DNA of 64,000 nucleotides from a virus. Taxonomy: Duplodnaviria; Caudoviricetes. A program made the translations under genes and the position numbers. How positions within the stretch are numbered: the stretch's first letter is position 1; each line of letters begins with the position of its first letter. The stretch covers positions 128,001-192,000 of IMG/VR virus record IMGVR_UViG_3300037851_000671; one strand, 5' to 3'. The notes below the pieces were generated by a model, which was not told where the DNA came from, ran no database searches, and worked only from the letters and a program-made list of their open reading frames with translations. Shown here in pieces: positions 37,392-59,716 of the stretch.

Positions 37392-37413
37392 GTTGGTAGC
37401 GTGTGTAGTAAAT

Positions 37414-37484
37414 GACAGCGAAAAAAAAGATCCGACCTTTTATTTGGTTTTGAATTCGAGATGAAAGATCGGTTGCGCGCTGTC
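37414..37484 (-). ncRNA. Structured RNA E1 (shared terminal motif, no T-arm)
   Basis: GACAGCG/CGCTGTC stem, CGCAA opposite AUC-U8, inner CCGATCTTT/AAAGGTCGG. Confidence 0.65.
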
Positions 37485-37487
37485 TAG

Positions 37488-37560
37488 TCGGGCGGGAGGG
37501 ATTCGAACCCCCAACTATTCGCTTATGAGGCGACTTTTCTAACCGTTGAAATACCACCCG
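37488..37560 (-). tRNA. tRNA-Met or tRNA-Ile2 (anticodon CAU)
   Basis: CGGGTGG/CCGCCCG acceptor, CT-CAT-AA loop, GGGGG-TTCGAAT-CCCTC; lacks initiator features. Confidence 0.88.
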
Positions 37561-37564
37561 AAAC

Positions 37565-37681
37565 GGCAACGAAATTATGTAGACAATAGGCCGGCTTTTT
37601 ACACCGTTTCCAAAGCCTCCGATGGATTCGAACCACCTAGCGCCAATTGATGATAGATGAAATGTCTACGAGCGCGTTGCC
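37565..37681 (-). ncRNA. Y RNA-like element E2
   Basis: GGCAACG/CGTTGCC and GTAGACA/TGTCTAC stems enclosing a T-arm GGTGG-TTCGAAT-CCATC. Confidence 0.75.
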
Positions 37682-37691
37682 AGAAATTAAA

Positions 37692-37826
37692 GAGTAACGA
37701 AAATTGCAGGACCACTGTTTTTTGTGCTACAATTACAACACATCCAGCCTTTCGACCGGAGCTGGGATTCGAACCCAGACCTCTTAATTCTCAATTTAGG
37801 ATGAATGATCCCACTGCGCGTTACTC
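37692..37826 (-). ncRNA. YrlA-like Y RNA E3 (circularly permuted tRNA mimic)
   Basis: GAGTAACG/CGTTACTC stem; then T-arm CTGGG-TTCGAAT-CCCAG, closed acceptor-like hairpin TCCGG/CTGGA, D-arm-like GTGTT-GTAATTGT-AGCAC. Confidence 0.8.
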
Positions 37827-37879
37827 GGTGCTTCGTTCTATGTTTCCACAGAATGAAACGAGAGCGTAAAGTAAACCGA

Positions 37880-38185: not shown

Positions 38186-38894
38186 TCTTTTCTTAGAGAG
38201 ACTTGCAGAGGGCTTGGATTCAACATCAAAGCTTACTCATGCTTTATTGTCTGAGATCAGAGATTCTGAAGCGGATTTTGCCTCCATCAAAACCGAGCTG
38301 TCAATACTAAGAGAGAACGTTAAAGGACTGTCAGAGATTGTCAGGGAAGGTAATGGAGCCACATCTATTCTCACACGTATTGCGCTTATTGAGGCGCGAA
38401 TACAGAACATTGAGAAGTGGATGGAAACCCACATCGATCTTCATCAGGAGGAAAACGCTGACGTGAGCAAGGCTCAGGAACAGCTGAAAGACCTCGATAA
38501 GAAGATCGCCGCGTTAACTTCAGTTGTCAATGAACTAAAATCTCACGCCGATGATATTGAGAAGAAGAGGCGCGAGAGTATAGACCGCGAGCTAGAGCTT
38601 CAGCACGAGGACAAGAAGAGCAAGATAGGGGTAGCTGCCGAAAGACAGCAGACCATTATCAAAGTCCTTGGTGCCCTGTTGTTGGCCGTGCTTGGCGCTG
38701 CTGGTGGCTATTTAGCGAATTCTTGTCATGGGACCGCCGGAGCGGCGCAGCCAAGGAGCGTTATTGTTGCCCCCTCGGCTGCCCCTATCCTAGCTCAACC
38801 GGCCGAGCCGATCAAGGAGAATCTGACTCCTCAACCGCCGTCACAGCCGCTTCTTCAGCCTTCGGTTTCTGCTGTTGCAAAACGAACTCGTTGA
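38160..38894 (+). CDS. Coiled-coil protein with C-terminal transmembrane helix and Pro-rich tail
   Basis: IIKVLGALLLAVLGAAGGYL hydrophobic segment. Confidence 0.75.
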   Translation: MATSKTTNDLFLERLAEGLDSTSKLTHALLSEIRDSEADFASIKTELSILRENVKGLSEIVREGNGATSILTRIALIEARIQNIEKWMETHIDLHQEENADVSKAQEQLKDLDKKIAALTSVVNELKSHADDIEKKRRESIDRELELQHEDKKSKIGVAAERQQTIIKVLGALLLAVLGAAGGYLANSCHGTAGAAQPRSVIVAPSAAPILAQPAEPIKENLTPQPPSQPLLQPSVSAVAKRTR

Positions 38895-40458
38895 GATCAA
38901 AATCCCTGATCGCCTTGACAATGTTGATACCAACATACTCAAGGTTCTTGAACAGTGCCGGTGTCATAGTCTGATACACGGTGACACTACGATCACCGAA
39001 ATCAGCGCTGTGCCACTGGTAGTTGCTGGCATTGATAACCCAAAGCTCTGCCTCTGGGTTGACCTTCTTGCGATACTCAGCCCAAGCCCTTGTCAAAGGA
39101 GTGCCAGCGTTCTGCTGCTCATCAGTGATCAAAACCATCAAATCAAGCTTACGCTTGCTGTTGGTTGCGTTCTCGATTGCCAGAGAAACCGTAGTTCCAC
39201 CGGCAACCCTGAGAGCCAACAGATTCTTAACCTGATTCTTGCGATTCAGGCCAGTGATCCTTGGGCACATACCGCTAGCGTAGCCGTAACGACCTCCGTG
39301 ACCCTCCTCATACAAGGCGTTATCAAAAGTTGTGAACCAAAGGTTTGTAGCCTTTAGGAATGGCACTGCCAACAGACCAGCAGTCTGAAGAGGCTCCCCG
39401 TTCATAGAACCAGAGATATCAACAGACACACCAACTCTCTTACCTTCAATGGTAGGCATTGGTACGTCCAATGTTGCAACCATTGCATCGATAAGAATGT
39501 CCTTGACCTTTTCGTGCTTGGCGAAAATGTATGGCTTTGCAAAGTCAAGCGGAAGAGAGCGGCCATTCTGAACCTCTCCCATCTTTAGCTTGAGCGCGGT
39601 CAGTCCATCCGTGGTGTCGAAGACATTGCGCTCTTCGAGAGAACGGATGTTGAGCAACAGAGCTGTCAAACCCATCTGAGTCATCGAGGCCATTGCAAGA
39701 GGACCCTTGAGTCCCGCAAAACCCTTAACAACATCCCATGGGATTTCATTTTCCAGCATCATATCAGCGATCTTCTTTGGATCACTGAGCTTCTTCATCA
39801 TCTCAACAGCAACCTGCTTGGAACCGGTTGCCTCGGCCTTACGACCGTCCAAGACATACAGAATGACGTTTGCACGACCGTCTGTATAACGTGGGTGAAC
39901 CAAACGAACGAGCTGATTCAAAGCAGTTGGATACTTGAGCGTGAAGTTTTCAAGCTTCTTATATCCCCACTTCTCCATTGCCGCGCGCACCCACTTCTGA
40001 GCACGCGAACCAAAACCACGACCCAACTGCTTGCTCTTGCACAGCTCCACGAACTGGATCAATTGACCAGGGTGGAATGTGCTAAGCAATGCAATAGCTG
40101 CCTGCTTATTTACAGGAGAATCCAAGAACTGCTCGTTTGCAGATCCGGCAATGGCAGCAAGAGCTACCTTAACCATACCTTTCATATGGCTATTGCGGGC
40201 AAAGCAAGCCGCCTTGAGCAGGTACTCAGGGTCCAGCTTCGCGCGGTCAATGAGCAACGGCAGAGCTTCTTTTGCCGCGTCATCAACAGAGCGATAAAAC
40301 TGGTTCTTAAGAATACCAGTCAAAAGAACACGAGCAACCGAATCTTCAGGAAGCTCATTCTTGGACAGATATTCCGTCTTGGTCACAACCTTCTCAGGCT
40401 GACCCAACAGAGCCTTAACAAAAGAAGTGGACTTAACCTTGTTTGTTGTCTTATTCAT
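38812..40458 (-). CDS. TROVE + vWA protein (Ro60/Rsr orthologue)
   Basis: NQFY...DPEYLLKAACFAR HEAT-like TROVE region; MIDAS VDISGSM and LITDEQ. Confidence 0.88.
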   Translation of the reverse strand: MNKTTNKVKSTSFVKALLGQPEKVVTKTEYLSKNELPEDSVARVLLTGILKNQFYRSVDDAAKEALPLLIDRAKLDPEYLLKAACFARNSHMKGMVKVALAAIAGSANEQFLDSPVNKQAAIALLSTFHPGQLIQFVELCKSKQLGRGFGSRAQKWVRAAMEKWGYKKLENFTLKYPTALNQLVRLVHPRYTDGRANVILYVLDGRKAEATGSKQVAVEMMKKLSDPKKIADMMLENEIPWDVVKGFAGLKGPLAMASMTQMGLTALLLNIRSLEERNVFDTTDGLTALKLKMGEVQNGRSLPLDFAKPYIFAKHEKVKDILIDAMVATLDVPMPTIEGKRVGVSVDISGSMNGEPLQTAGLLAVPFLKATNLWFTTFDNALYEEGHGGRYGYASGMCPRITGLNRKNQVKNLLALRVAGGTTVSLAIENATNSKRKLDLMVLITDEQQNAGTPLTRAWAEYRKKVNPEAELWVINASNYQWHSADFGDRSVTVYQTMTPALFKNLEYVGINIVKAIRDFDLNEFVLQQQKPKAEEAAVTAVEESDSP

Positions 40459-55193: not shown

Positions 55194-55197
55194 AGGG

Positions 55198-55286
55198 CGG
55201 AAGTGGCAGGATTTGAACCTGCGGTGGGCTGTTAACCACACGACTGTTTAGCAAACAGTTACAATAAGCCGCTCTGACACACTTCC
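55198..55286 (-). tRNA. tRNA-Ser(GCU)
   Basis: GGAAGTG/CACTTCC, ACTGT-TTGCTAA-ACAGT, long variable arm, GCAGG-TTCAAAT-CCTGC. Confidence 0.92.
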
Positions 55287-55299
55287 ATATGAAAATTTG

Positions 55300-55385
55300 C
55301 GGAAGAAGAAGGAGTCAAACCTTCAAGACCTTTTGGGTTCGCCGGAGTTCGAAGCCGGTGCCATCATCTATTGGCTTGTTCTTCC
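55300..55385 (-). tRNA. tRNA-Ser(CGA), non-canonical
   Basis: GGAAGAA/TTCTTCC, CCGG(C)-TTCGAAC-(T)CCGG, T-loop TTTGACT, C8, no D-loop GG. Confidence 0.75.
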
Positions 55386-55391
55386 AATCAG

Positions 55392-55479
55392 CGGAAGGTT
55401 GCGATCCCGCCTCGCAGTCCATTTATTTGGACCCTTCAAGTTTCCAACTTGAGCTGGTGCCTTGCCCAGTTAACCTTCC
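55392..55479 (-). tRNA. tRNA-Ser(GGA) with atypical T-loop
   Basis: GGAAGGT/ACCTTCC, TCAAG-TTGGAAA-CTTGA, TGCGA-GGCGGGA-TCGCA. Confidence 0.75.
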
Positions 55480-57695: not shown

Positions 57696-58410
57696 GTTCT
57701 TTCAAAGCCTGCTGCAATAGGTATATGTGGCTTTCGCTGTCACTTGCTTGTGACATGATCAGATCATCAAGCCCAAGTGTAAGAGCATCCTTTTCTTTCA
57801 AGGCATCATACACTTTGCTTGCTACTGTCTGGAAAAGCTGCTCTGCGGCCAACGATGACTGAAGGTGTTTTGCAGGGTTACCCTTGTGCTCTTCAACAAT
57901 GAACTGTGAGGCAATGTCACCAACCAACTCTTGATTGACTAGCTCACCACAAAGCCCCACCACTCTCTCGGCGGCATCATCAGCCATTTCTTGAACACCC
58001 TCGTATAGGCGCTGAAGAAGAAGGTGATGTTCATAACCAGCAGTTTCAAGATGGTTTTGATGATGTATCAAATACATCGCACGAAGAACAGCAGCGTATA
58101 CTGAAAGCATCTCACAATCATCATTGTCAAGTTTGCTTTCACCACGCTCGGTGCCAATGAAACCGTCAAGGATACCTTCTGCAACTACAACAAGCGCACG
58201 TCTCTCTGAAGCTTCGCAACGGCATTTCCAACGCCTGAGCGCTTTGTTAATACAACTGTCAGGGTCCTTCTTAGTCTTGGACTTTGTGTTCTTCTTTTTA
58301 TGGCCGCACATCCTATCGCAAAATGATTTCTGCTTAGGAGAACCTACAGGGGCTTTCTTTGTCCCTTCACATTTTTCAGCGGCTTTGACTAGTTGTTCTA
58401 AGATATCCAT
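57679..58410 (-). CDS. Fusion of small basic phage domain and ferritin/Dps-like domain
   Basis: KSFCDRM...DPDSCINKALRRWKC then H..H....GYEHHLLLQRLYE..DDAAER..LGLDDLIM..HIYLLQQ. Confidence 0.7.
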   Translation of the reverse strand: MDILEQLVKAAEKCEGTKKAPVGSPKQKSFCDRMCGHKKKNTKSKTKKDPDSCINKALRRWKCRCEASERRALVVVAEGILDGFIGTERGESKLDNDDCEMLSVYAAVLRAMYLIHHQNHLETAGYEHHLLLQRLYEGVQEMADDAAERVVGLCGELVNQELVGDIASQFIVEEHKGNPAKHLQSSLAAEQLFQTVASKVYDALKEKDALTLGLDDLIMSQASDSESHIYLLQQALKELGHEQ

Positions 58411-58422
58411 ACAAGGATCTCA

Positions 58423-58428
58423 GAATAT
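58423..58428 (-). promoter_or_regulatory. ATATTC candidate late promoter
   Basis: 12 nt before ATG 58410. Confidence 0.55.
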
Positions 58429-58445
58429 GCAGTGTATGTATGTTG

Positions 58446-58517
58446 AGTCGAGAGCCCGAATCGAACGGGCGATCTTCTAGTTTGCAGCTAGAGGCCTTAC
58501 CACTTGGCTACCTCGAC
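58446..58517 (-). tRNA. tRNA-Cys(GCA)
   Basis: TCTAG-CTGCAAA-CTAGA, GCCCG-TTCGATT-CGGGC, U73. Confidence 0.93.
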
Positions 58518-58519
58518 GT

Positions 58520-58594
58520 TGGAGCGGATAGCGGGGCTCGAACCCGCAACATTCTCGTTGGCAACGAGGCATTCTACCATTGAATTACATCCGC
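58520..58594 (-). tRNA. tRNA-Gly(GCC)
   Basis: GCGGATG/TATCCGC-TCCA, TT-GCC-AA loop. Confidence 0.95.
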
Positions 58595-58600
58595 ATGTTT

Positions 58601-58740
58601 TCAGGCAAGATTGGGAATCGACCCACAGTTTGTTGCAAAACTTTTGTGTGGCTGGCCGTGTCACAGCCCTTTGGACTCACTCCGGTTTTGTTACTCAACA
58701 AACCCATTCACGAGATGTTTGGGCATCTCTTGCTTCCTGA
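58601..58740 (-). ncRNA. Unassigned multi-branched 140-nt RNA between tRNA-Gly genes
   Basis: Ends pair (TCAG..GCAAGA/TCTTGC-CTGA); five to six internal hairpins; 3' TGGG-TCGATT-CCCA T-arm-like. Confidence 0.65.
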
Positions 58741-58741
58741 G

Positions 58742-58813
58742 AGCGGGGTACCGGATTTGAACCGGTGACATCAAACTTGGAAGGATTGCGTTCTACCGCT
58801 GAACTAACCCCGC
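58742..58813 (-). tRNA. tRNA-Gly(UCC)
   Basis: GCGGGGT/ACCCCGC, CT-TCC-AA loop, ACCGG-TTCAAAT-CCGGT. Confidence 0.93.
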
Positions 58814-58822
58814 GTGTATTTG

Positions 58823-59716
58823 TTATGCTACGATATTACCATCTCTCGACATGTATTTTTCCTTGAGATAGTTTAGATAGTAGTTCCTATCTTCGTTATT
58901 TGCTTCTATATCACCAGATTCAATCATCTGCTCAAGAAATTCTTTCATCTTGCCGATTTCTCTACCATCGGAAACACCAAGCTGTTCCATGATATCATGG
59001 CCAAAACCCTTTGGAAGTTTTGACTTTGATTTCTCATCTTCTTCAGCAATGGTTTTGATTCTGTTTCTTAGGTTTTCAATACGAGCAAGGATAGCGTTTT
59101 TCTTTGAGAGATGCTTAGTGGTTATGTCAGCAGCAGAAAGCAGAAGAATATCATCAAGGTATTCTCCCATTTCTTTTGCGAACCTACGAACCGCAGAGTC
59201 AGTCCAAGAAGGTTCGTATCCTTCAATGTACCCAAGATTGTACACAAGAAATTGGATACGCTTGTACAGACCAGGAGAAAACAACTTGGTTCTAAGAGAG
59301 AACTCTTTGAATATCCTAGCGCTGATGTGTTCATGCTGGTGAAACGTTACCTTTCCATCTTTGATTGAAAAGGCTTTGGCTTTGCCCATGTCATGAAACA
59401 AAGCAGCCCAACGAACCGCTAAAGATTGCGGAGCTTGTGACATAACCTGCAACGTGTGAGGCCAAATTTCCTTGAACTGTTTCTCAGCGCGAAACTCTAC
59501 AACTTCTTTCAGCTCAGGAAGAAGAGGATATAGGAACCCGCTTCTTTGCAGAGCAGAAAAAACCAGATATACGTGAGGTGACAGGATTATCTTGTGGAGT
59601 ATTGTAAGCTTTTCATGGTCCAAAGACAAAACGTCTTCAGCAGAAGATACAGATTCCAAAACCCCATCAAACTTGCCACGCTGAGCAAGTTGGAGTGCCT
59701 GTTGAAGAATCTTCAT
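58823..59716 (-). CDS. Stand-alone HD-domain protein resembling the C-terminal half of CCA-adding enzyme
   Basis: LLPEL, HTLQV, AALFHDMGK, TFHQHE, WTDSAVRR, LSAADIT; no GGxVRD/DxD transferase head. Confidence 0.85.
   Translation of the reverse strand: MKILQQALQLAQRGKFDGVLESVSSAEDVLSLDHEKLTILHKIILSPHVYLVFSALQRSGFLYPLLPELKEVVEFRAEKQFKEIWPHTLQVMSQAPQSLAVRWAALFHDMGKAKAFSIKDGKVTFHQHEHISARIFKEFSLRTKLFSPGLYKRIQFLVYNLGYIEGYEPSWTDSAVRRFAKEMGEYLDDILLLSAADITTKHLSKKNAILARIENLRNRIKTIAEEDEKSKSKLPKGFGHDIMEQLGVSDGREIGKMKEFLEQMIESGDIEANNEDRNYYLNYLKEKYMSRDGNIVA

What the first reader, a model, noticed from the sequence alone, without database searches (positions are those of the whole stretch)
58601..58740. 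Unassigned 140-nt multi-branched RNA wedged between two tRNA-Gly genes
Seen: it fills the spacer almost exactly. Ends pair; internal hairpins include GAGATG/CATCTC, GGTTTGTT/AACAAAACC, GGCTG/CAGCC and CACA..AGTTT/AAACT.GTG; a final TGGG-TCGATT-CCCA stacks before the closing stem like a T-arm. It matches no tRNA, tmRNA, SRP or ribozyme pattern that I can recognise. Flanking tRNA processing would release it as a discrete RNA. Inference: a novel tRNA-elbow-mimicking ncRNA.
Basis: partly seen in the sequence, partly recalled or inferred. Interest (0 to 1): 0.66.

Follow-up and report, generated by a model that had tools for sequence, protein, structure and literature searches.

The report
Orphan spacer RNA between two tRNA-Gly genes
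The 146-base gap between two glycine tRNA genes of this huge freshwater phage can fold into hairpins with paired ends. It matches no known RNA family and has no counterpart in any related phage, so it is most likely an ordinary lineage-specific spacer and not a new tRNA-mimicking RNA.

Summary
The spacer and its hairpins are real. It is window 58595-58740 on the minus strand, 146 nt, exactly between tRNA-Gly(UCC) and tRNA-Gly(GCC). The ends pair in a 10-bp helix with a GAA bulge; only 1.4% of random 146-nt windows of this genome pair as well.

Little else is special:
- The whole fold is no more stable than background (z about -1.5 to -1.75; 20% of random windows are as low).
- The middle has two near-equal alternative folds.
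- The 'T-arm' has a 6-nt loop, and its likeness to tRNA T-arms does not exceed shuffled controls.

Nothing matched: Rfam, ARAGORN, a model of the phage's own 12-copy Y-RNA-like family, or a model of T4 RNAC. A model of the element itself found no counterpart in the own genome, 20 related virus records or 16 syntenic loci. In relatives the same position holds unrelated sequence or none. No RNA data exist.

Verdict: most likely a lineage-specific transcribed spacer released during tRNA processing. A genuine orphan small RNA remains possible at about 0.3. tRNA-elbow mimicry is not supported.

The same genome's Ro60 gene and Y-like RNA family were already noted by this scan. I re-verified them; they are the more interesting feature.

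The parts
58741..58813 (-). tRNA-Gly(UCC), upstream neighbour. It has no encoded CCA, and its 3' processing site defines the 5' end of the spacer RNA.
   Evidence: ARAGORN; Rfam tRNA 67.1 bits
58595..58740 (-). The 146-nt spacer element, an orphan, predicted multi-hairpin RNA.
   Evidence: Sequence; fold; no Rfam hit; no homolog
58728..58740 (-). 5' strand of the terminal helix (RNA positions 1-4 and 8-13, with G5-A6-A7 bulged).
   Evidence: RNAduplex -10.8 kcal/mol; 1.4% of random windows are as good
58601..58610 (-). 3' strand of the terminal helix (RNA positions 131-140). It is followed by the 6-nt tail AAACAU before the next tRNA.
58712..58729 (-). Hairpin 1, GAGAUG-CCCAAA-CAUCUC (RNA positions 12-29). 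This is the most certain local helix, with pair probabilities 0.97-0.99.
58626..58705 (-). Central domain (RNA positions 36-115). Four mutually complementary segments give two near-isoenergetic folds. It also holds the small hairpins GGA/UCC and GGCUG/CGGCC or CAGCC.
   Evidence: pair probabilities split about 0.5/0.4; -41.4 vs -39.4 kcal/mol
58612..58625 (-). T-arm-like hairpin UGGG-UCGAUU-CCCA (RNA positions 116-129), one nucleotide from the 3' strand of the terminal helix.
   Evidence: likeness to tRNA T-arms not above the shuffle null
58520..58594 (-). tRNA-Gly(GCC), downstream neighbour. RNase P cleavage at its 5' end would define the 3' end of the spacer RNA.
   Evidence: ARAGORN; Rfam tRNA 63.4 bits
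58445..58517 (-). tRNA-Cys(GCA), the last gene of the small tRNA cluster.
58823..59716 (-). HD-domain protein resembling the C-terminal part of a tRNA nucleotidyltransferase, upstream on the same strand. Its synteny with tRNA-Gly(UCC) is conserved in relatives and anchors the comparison.
   Evidence: Pfam HD; phrog_2244; homologs; synteny

Best explanation
The element is a lineage-specific transcribed spacer in a small phage tRNA operon (tRNA-Gly(UCC), spacer, tRNA-Gly(GCC), tRNA-Cys, all on the minus strand). It would be co-transcribed with the tRNAs. Cleavage at the 3' end of the upstream tRNA (RNase Z or RNase E type) and RNase P cleavage at the 5' end of the downstream tRNA would excise it. 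Its 10-bp terminal helix would bring the two processing sites together, keep the spacer from interfering with folding of the flanking tRNAs, and could make the by-product transiently stable. It probably has no conserved trans-acting role. It may derive from a decayed tRNA-like or Y-like insertion, which would explain the degenerate T-arm-like hairpin. Shown here: the anatomy, the terminal pairing, and the lack of any family match or homolog. Inferred: transcription, the processing steps, and the absence of function.
For: 1. No conservation.
- A covariance model of the element (R2) finds only itself in the own 218-kb record. The next hit scores 12.9 bits and lies inside an HNH endonuclease ORF.
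- R2 finds nothing at E<0.5 in 20 related virus records and nothing at the syntenic place in 16 syntenic loci.
- blastn against 50,697 phage records finds nothing, and blastn against five relatives finds nothing.

2. The syntenic position is not conserved. Relatives keep the order HD gene then tRNA-Gly(UCC). What follows is an unrelated spacer of 66, 135 or 174 nt, extra tRNA-Gly genes with spacers of 83-124 nt between them, or an ORF directly. In the same relatives the tRNAs and the Y-like family remain detectable.

3. The fold is not exceptional. z is -1.47 to -1.75, and 20% of random windows of the genome are as low. The central domain is ambiguous.

4. There is no match to any Rfam family at E<=10, to the Y-like model R1 (2.8 bits) or to the T4 RNAC model R3 (1.6 bits).

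5. The T-arm likeness is within the shuffle null.
Against: - The terminal helix is stronger than in 98.6% of random windows and equals those of genuine RNAs in the same genome.
- In this compact genome, five of the seven other inter-tRNA gaps over 60 nt are occupied by genuine structured RNAs of the Y-like family. Idle spacers of this size are therefore not the rule here.
- The Y-like RNAs also have modest fold z-scores, so a weak z does not exclude function.
- Known phage tRNA-cluster RNAs such as T4 RNAC are likewise confined to a narrow lineage.
- No expression data of any kind were available.
Confidence: 0.5

Rival explanations
1. It is a genuine orphan small stable RNA of the phage tRNA cluster. 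It would work like T4 RNAC (species 1 RNA): excised by tRNA-processing enzymes, stabilised by its terminal helix stacked next to a T-arm-like hairpin, and acting in trans during infection. Possible roles are a decoy or ligand for a tRNA-binding enzyme, or for the phage's Ro60-like protein.
For: - Terminal helix, p about 0.014.
- It fills the gap between two same-strand tRNA genes exactly as RNAC homologs do in Karamvirus and Winklervirus.
- RNAC is a real structured RNA with a closing stem plus T-arm (16 of 46 pairs covary). Its role is still unknown (PMC3014915) and it has been validated by northern blot (PMC9697503).
- Most other gaps of this size in this genome are RNA genes.
- The spacer's GC content is 47%, against 38-49% (mostly 40-45%) in 2-kb bins of the window.
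Against: - No homolog or paralog anywhere.
- The RNAC model scores 1.6 bits and the Y-like model 2.8 bits.
- The T-like loop is 6 nt, not a T-loop.
- The fold z is ordinary and the core is ambiguous.
- The element lies 18 kb from the Ro60-like gene.
Confidence: 0.28
2. It is a decayed copy of a tRNA-derived element: either one of the phage's Y-like RNAs that has lost its conserved handle, or a tRNA gene disrupted by an insertion. It would persist only as spacer.
For: - The layout resembles the Y-like family: a terminal helix, then a 5' hairpin GAGAUG..CAUCUC (compare GAGAUC-UUU-CAUCUU in family members), a variable body, and GGUC near the 3' end.
- Positions 8-13 and 131-136 could be read as an acceptor stem next to a T-like hairpin one deletion away from GGGUUCGAUUCCC.
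- Relatives carry extra tRNA-Gly genes at this place.
Against: - The Y-like model gives no alignment of the handle.
- The invariant AACGCG, UUCAUC and UUUCGUU are all absent.
- The tRNA model and ARAGORN with introns find nothing.
- The local similarities are within shuffle nulls.
Confidence: 0.17
3. It encodes a tiny peptide. An 11-codon ORF (AUG at RNA position 15, MPKHLVNGFVE) follows an AGGAAG Shine-Dalgarno-like motif by 6 nt.
For: Read directly from the sequence.
Against: The AUG and the motif lie inside the terminal helix and hairpin 1. There is no counterpart in any relative. ORFs of 11 codons arise by chance at high frequency. The site sits between tRNA genes with no promoter or terminator of its own.
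Confidence: 0.02

Closest known systems
T4 RNAC (species 1 RNA, rnaC) of Tevenvirinae tRNA clusters
   Same: About 140 nt. It lies on the tRNA strand inside a phage tRNA cluster and, in Karamvirus and Winklervirus, fills the gap between two tRNA genes. It has paired ends with a hairpin next to the 3' strand of the closing stem. Its function is unknown (PMC3014915, PMC9697503). It is confined to one phage lineage.
   Different: RNAC has a canonical 5-bp T-arm with a UUCGAAU loop stacked directly on the closing stem, a fold z of -4.6, and clear covariation. The element has a 4-bp hairpin with a 6-nt loop, an ordinary z and no homologs. The RNAC covariance model scores it 1.6 bits, so it is not a member.
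YrlA-type Y RNAs, and this phage clade's own 12-copy Y-like RNA family next to a Ro60-like gene
   Same: A small RNA embedded among tRNA genes of the same genome, with a terminal helix formed by its 5' and 3' ends and a variable body.
   Different: It lacks the family's invariant handle (AACGCG, GAUC-UUCAUC, GGUC, UUUCGUU) and the permuted T-arm/acceptor/D-arm module. The family model scores it 2.8 bits and Rfam YrlA gives no hit on it. It lies 18 kb from the Ro60-like gene, whereas Chen et al. 2014 reported only YrlA candidates within 4 kb of Ro60 (PMC4201824).
Ordinary transcribed spacers of polycistronic tRNA operons
   Same: Non-coding, between same-strand tRNA genes, with no promoter or terminator of its own, not conserved between relatives, and removed by RNase P and 3'-end processing (established tRNA maturation pathway; inference here).
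   Different: It is longer than most spacers in this genome's tRNA runs (2-24 nt) and has an unusually strong end-to-end helix.

Membership tests
tRNA (RF00005) | Cloverleaf scoring at or above the Rfam gathering score (29 bits), or called by ARAGORN | tested here: not met
   No tRNA hit on 58595-58740, even at E<=10. ARAGORN finds nothing, including with introns and a lowered threshold.
tRNA-like elbow mimic | T-loop: 5-bp stem and 7-nt loop with the U54-A58 pair, plus a partner loop | tested here: not met
   The hairpin is UGGG-UCGAUU-CCCA, 4 bp with a 6-nt loop. Its likeness to 184 tRNAs is within the shuffle null. No D-loop-like partner could be named.
tmRNA | tRNA-like domain plus tag reading frame | tested here: not met
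   ARAGORN in tmRNA mode finds none. No Rfam tmRNA hit.
Self-cleaving ribozymes, SRP, RNase P RNA and other Rfam families | Covariance-model match | tested here: not met
   cmscan of 58400-58900 at E<=10 lists only the three tRNAs and chance hits outside or marginal to the element.
Phage Y-like RNA family (model R1) / YrlA (RF02553) | Conserved handle: P1 NNNNAACG/CGUUNNNN, P2 ..GAUC/GGUC.., and single-stranded UUCAUC and UUU | tested here: not met
   The alignment shows none of the invariant blocks. R1 with filters off gives no hit at E<=10 in the window, and 2.8 bits on the T-like hairpin alone when the element is searched on its own.
Phage Y-like RNA family (model R1) / YrlA (RF02553) | Terminal helix formed by the 5' and 3' ends | tested here: met
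   -10.8 kcal/mol, within the range of the 11 family members (-7.7 to -12.4).
Phage Y-like RNA family (model R1) / YrlA (RF02553) | Binding to Ro60 | not testable with these tools
   Needs immunoprecipitation. The Ro60 vWA-domain protein is at 38812-40458, 18 kb away.
T4 RNAC (species 1 RNA) | Sequence and structure homology to the RNAC covariance model | tested here: not met
   Model R3, built from T4, Karamvirus, Winklervirus and Moonvirus copies, gives 1.6 bits on the element. blastn against all phage records finds nothing.
T4 RNAC (species 1 RNA) | Location on the tRNA strand within a phage tRNA cluster, flanked by tRNA genes | tested here: met
T4 RNAC (species 1 RNA) | Accumulates as a stable processed RNA | not testable with these tools
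   No RNA run is listed for this DNA.

The most novel reading that the evidence does not exclude
The element is a genuine orphan small RNA of a huge-phage tRNA array. It would be released by tRNA-processing enzymes and stabilised by its 10-bp terminal helix and a degenerate acceptor/T-like minihelix. It would act in trans, for example as a second, handle-less ligand of the phage Ro60-like system or as a decoy for a tRNA-targeting enzyme. On this reading, huge-phage tRNA arrays are nurseries of fast-evolving, lineage-specific tRNA-derived RNAs.
Probability: 0.28. Interest if true: 0.45.

Novelty: already known. Interest (0 to 1): 0.2.

Why it matters
If the element were a real stable RNA, it would add an unrelated example to the small class of phage tRNA-cluster RNAs, T4 RNAC and RNAD, whose function has stayed unknown for decades. 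It would also suggest that tRNA arrays of huge phages spawn lineage-specific tRNA-derived RNAs. As the evidence stands, it is a single non-conserved spacer without expression data, and it cannot bear that claim. The useful results are negative: it is not a tRNA, tmRNA, ribozyme, Y-like RNA or RNAC relative. One positive feature, the terminal helix, is worth a northern blot if the phage is ever cultured. The genuinely informative RNA biology of this genome is the Ro60-like gene with its 12-copy Y-like RNA family, which this scan had already noted.

Tried and rejected
- blastn of the element against 50,697 phage records gave only 19-24-nt chance matches at E about 5. An exact 26-mer scan of IMG/VR gave nothing.
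- Single-protein searches for related loci with both flanking genes gave nothing. A profile of the HD protein was needed.
- Sequencing runs: only the probable source metagenome holds the DNA, and no RNA holder was listed.
- Laying contigs of two runs gave no variants over the element. The second run covers only tRNA-like pieces from other organisms and two low-depth pieces elsewhere.
- The second-best hit of model R2 in the own genome (G000 210303-210443, 12.9-18.7 bits) lies inside a 176-aa HNH endonuclease ORF, so it is chance.
- A 20-nt match to a 159-nt spacer in L116 turned out to lie in one of two tRNAs that ARAGORN had missed.
- The idea that 146 nt equals two decayed 73-nt tRNAs was rejected. 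The halves have no acceptor pairing of their own and give no tRNA model score.
- Reading it as a tRNA with a 55-nt insertion (acceptor 8-13/131-136) was rejected. There is no D-arm or 7-nt anticodon loop, and ARAGORN with introns finds nothing.
- A promoter or terminator inside the element: none found.
- The 11-codon ORF was judged to be chance.
- The Pfam TROVE search of the own genome was negative, although the Ro60 vWA domain is found in ORF 38812-40458.

Full report
**Where it lies.** The window is bases 128001-192000 of a 218,772-base IMG/VR virus record. CheckV estimates the record as about 51% complete, and it comes from a freshwater metagenome. That makes it a huge phage of roughly 0.4 Mb. 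All genes and tRNAs around the finding are on the minus strand. ARAGORN and Rfam agree on tRNA-Gly(UCC) at 58741-58813, tRNA-Gly(GCC) at 58520-58594 and tRNA-Cys at 58445-58517. The gap between the two tRNA-Gly genes is 58595-58740, 146 nt. Upstream on the same strand is an HD-domain protein resembling the C-terminal part of tRNA nucleotidyltransferases. Downstream is a DUF5856-type protein.

**Observation.** The most certain elements, with their pair probabilities, are:
- the outer terminal pairs (0.87-1.0);
- hairpin GAGAUG/CAUCUC (0.97-0.99);
- GGA/UCC (about 0.83);
- the T-like hairpin (0.6-0.8).

The best end-to-end pairing joins positions 1-4 and 8-13 to positions 131-140. This is a 10-bp helix with a GAA bulge and a duplex energy of -10.8 kcal/mol. 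That equals the terminal helices of the genuine Y-like RNAs of this genome (-7.7 to -12.4). Only 1.4% of 3000 random 146-nt windows of the same strand reach it. The gap boundaries are set by the tRNAs and not by me, so this is a fair single test and the one feature that stands out.

The rest does not stand out:
- The minimum free energy is -41.4 kcal/mol, with z = -1.75 or -1.47 in my own dinucleotide shuffles. 20% of random windows of this genome score -1.75 or lower.
- The central 80 nt hold four mutually complementary segments that give two exclusive folds, -41.4 and -39.4 kcal/mol, with pair probabilities split about 0.5 to 0.4.
- The 'T-arm' is UGGG-UCGAUU-CCCA, 4 bp with a 6-nt loop, one U short of a T-loop. 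Its best local alignment to 184 tRNAs scores 23, against a shuffled null of 20.7 +/- 1.6 with a maximum of 25.

**Known families.**
- Rfam finds nothing on the element, either at gathering scores or at E<=10 in a 501-nt search. ARAGORN with introns, tmRNA mode and a lowered threshold also finds nothing.
- From memory, T4 carries two stable RNAs in its tRNA cluster. I fetched them. RNAC has a closing stem plus a canonical T-arm and z = -4.6.
- RNAC homologs occur in 748 Tevenvirinae records. In Karamvirus and Winklervirus they sit exactly between two tRNA genes.
- A four-sequence alignment shows 16 of 46 pairs with compensatory changes. A covariance model built from it (R3) scores the element 1.6 bits.
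- So RNAC is the closest analogue in placement and size, but the element is not a member. Reviews state that the roles of RNAC and RNAD are unknown (PMC3014915). They are detected by northern blot (PMC9697503).

**The genome's own RNA family.**
- Folding the other inter-tRNA gaps of the record revealed a repeated frame: AACGCG, a GAUC-UUCAUC block, a variable body, GGUC, then UUUCGUU. The body is often a T-arm, a closed acceptor-like hairpin and a D-arm in permuted order.
- Eleven copies align. Two long-range helices and the T-arm covary strongly: 88.8% of cells are paired against 71% in shuffles, 14 pairs change on both sides, 0 of 500 shuffles reach the observed values, and the slide controls collapse.
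- Rfam YrlA gives sub-threshold but significant hits on two copies (42.5 and 37.8 bits).
- A model of the family (R1) finds 12 copies in the record, three of them in the window at 37409-37830. It also finds 14 and 11 copies in two related virus records.
- ORF 38812-40458 carries a Ro60 vWA domain.
- The scan had already noted this system. I only re-verified it as context.
- The element itself is not a member. None of the invariant blocks is present. R1 with filters off gives no hit at E<=10 across the window, and 2.8 bits on the T-like hairpin alone.

**Search for relatives of the element.**
- The HD protein has thousands of homologs, none closer than about 55% identity. The phage therefore has no close sequenced relative.
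- A profile search gave 40 IMG/VR loci and 80 metagenome loci. Seven look-ups of the best protein hits gave further contigs.
- The order SET-like gene, HD gene, tRNA-Gly(UCC) is conserved. What follows differs from relative to relative:

| Locus | What follows tRNA-Gly(UCC) |
|---|---|
| L002 | 174-nt unrelated spacer before tRNA-Gly(GCC) |
| L007 | 135-nt unrelated spacer |
| L125 | 66-nt spacer |
| L003 | extra tRNA-Gly genes, with 124- and 84-nt spacers between them |
| L005 | here tRNA-Gly(GCC) precedes tRNA-Gly(UCC), with an 83-nt spacer between them |
| L123, L128, L143, L146 | no second tRNA-Gly |

- The 174-nt and 135-nt spacers fold with z about -2 but share neither sequence nor architecture with the element.
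- A single-sequence covariance model of the element (R2) finds only itself in the own record. Its next hit lies inside an HNH endonuclease ORF.
- R2 finds nothing below E = 0.5 in 20 whole related virus records. With filters off it finds nothing at the syntenic place in 16 loci.
- Local alignment to 36 inter-tRNA spacers of relatives does not exceed the shuffle null. The best match lies in a tRNA that ARAGORN had missed.
- No RNA run holds the sequence. The only other DNA run gives no variant over the element.

**Weighing.**
- Against a functional RNA: there is no conservation in a clade where tRNAs and the Y-like family are conserved, the syntenic position is variable, the overall fold is ordinary and ambiguous, and the tRNA-like motif is degenerate.
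- For it: the terminal helix (p about 0.014). Five of the seven other inter-tRNA gaps over 60 nt in this compact genome are genuine RNA genes. The genuine Y-like RNAs also have weak fold z-scores, so z has little power here. Known analogues such as RNAC are lineage-restricted too.
- I put the plain transcribed, excised spacer at 0.5. It may be a relic of a tRNA-derived insertion.
- A genuine orphan stable RNA is at about 0.28, a decayed Y-like or tRNA copy as the main description at about 0.17, and a tiny ORF at 0.02.
- tRNA-elbow mimicry specifically is not supported.

**Novelty and score.** On present evidence the finding is an ordinary, non-conserved inter-tRNA spacer with one above-chance feature, so interest is low (0.2). 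The decisive data are small-RNA end mapping and closer relatives for covariation.

Noticed in passing
window 37409-37489, 37560-37686, 37688-37830 (all -), flanking tRNA-Met 37487-37560; nine more copies at G000 209847-218771: A 12-copy family of Y-RNA-like RNAs. They share a conserved handle (AACGCG, GAUC-UUCAUC, GGUC, UUUCGUU), have strongly covarying P1 and P2 helices, and carry variable bodies that are often permuted tRNA-like modules. Rfam YrlA gives sub-threshold hits on two copies. The family also occurs 14 and 11 times in two related virus records (G001, G005). The scan had already noted it; I re-verified it here.
   Followed up: partly
window 38812-40458 (-): A 548-aa ORF with a Ro60 vWA domain (PF25045, 30.1 bits, above its cut-off), about 1 kb from three Y-like RNAs. 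The Pfam TROVE search of the whole record was negative.
   Followed up: partly
window 55300-55409 (-), next to tRNA-Ser 55195-55287: A weak tRNA-like element. Rfam tRNA scores 31.3 bits at 55300-55385 but ARAGORN does not call it. The best, non-significant hit of the T4 RNAC model in the window also falls here (55333-55409, 13.4 bits).
   Followed up: no
G000 215036-215135 (-), outside the window: A 100-nt inter-tRNA gap holding a tRNA-like piece without an anticodon arm (acceptor-like stem, D-like stem, canonical T-arm GUGGUUCGAAUCCAC), followed by a terminator-like hairpin and a U run.
   Followed up: no
L003:7624-7707 and L005:7002-7084: Two related phages share an element of about 84 nt between tRNA-Gly genes. 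Its 5' hairpin differs in loop and stem yet stays paired (CCCACC..GGUGGG vs CCCACU..AGUUGGG), and both copies end in GGUCAUUUC. It may be another small conserved RNA of these tRNA arrays.
   Followed up: no
L116:2642-2800: A 159-nt 'spacer' between two tRNA-Arg genes is in fact two tRNAs that ARAGORN misses (Rfam tRNA 45.4 and 39.9 bits).
   Followed up: yes
L140:27-134 (OR753410.1) and records H42, H44, H53: T4 RNAC homologs are unannotated in most Tevenvirinae records. In several they are overlaid by a 'hypothetical protein' CDS, which in L140 lies on the opposite strand. These CDS calls are probably annotation errors.
   Followed up: no
L133:5031-5561 (-) = G000 210031-210561: A 176-aa HNH-type endonuclease ORF sits between tRNA-Pro and a Y-like RNA inside the tRNA array.
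   Followed up: no
L003:7426-7549: The 124-nt gap between tRNA-Gly(UCC) and tRNA-Gly(CCC) of a relative holds a 31-codon ORF (MGIKKHRSIKTHRV...) with a GGAG motif 9 nt upstream. I read this from the sequence only.
   Followed up: no
window 58823-59716 (-) and loci L123-L131, L143-L146: There is a conserved gene order in many huge-phage contigs: SET-like 108-aa gene, HD-domain (tRNA nucleotidyltransferase C-terminal-like) gene, tRNA-Gly(UCC), then NUDIX and/or DUF5856 genes. In L125 an RNA ligase gene (PF09414) lies upstream. This could be a tRNA repair or maintenance module.
   Followed up: no
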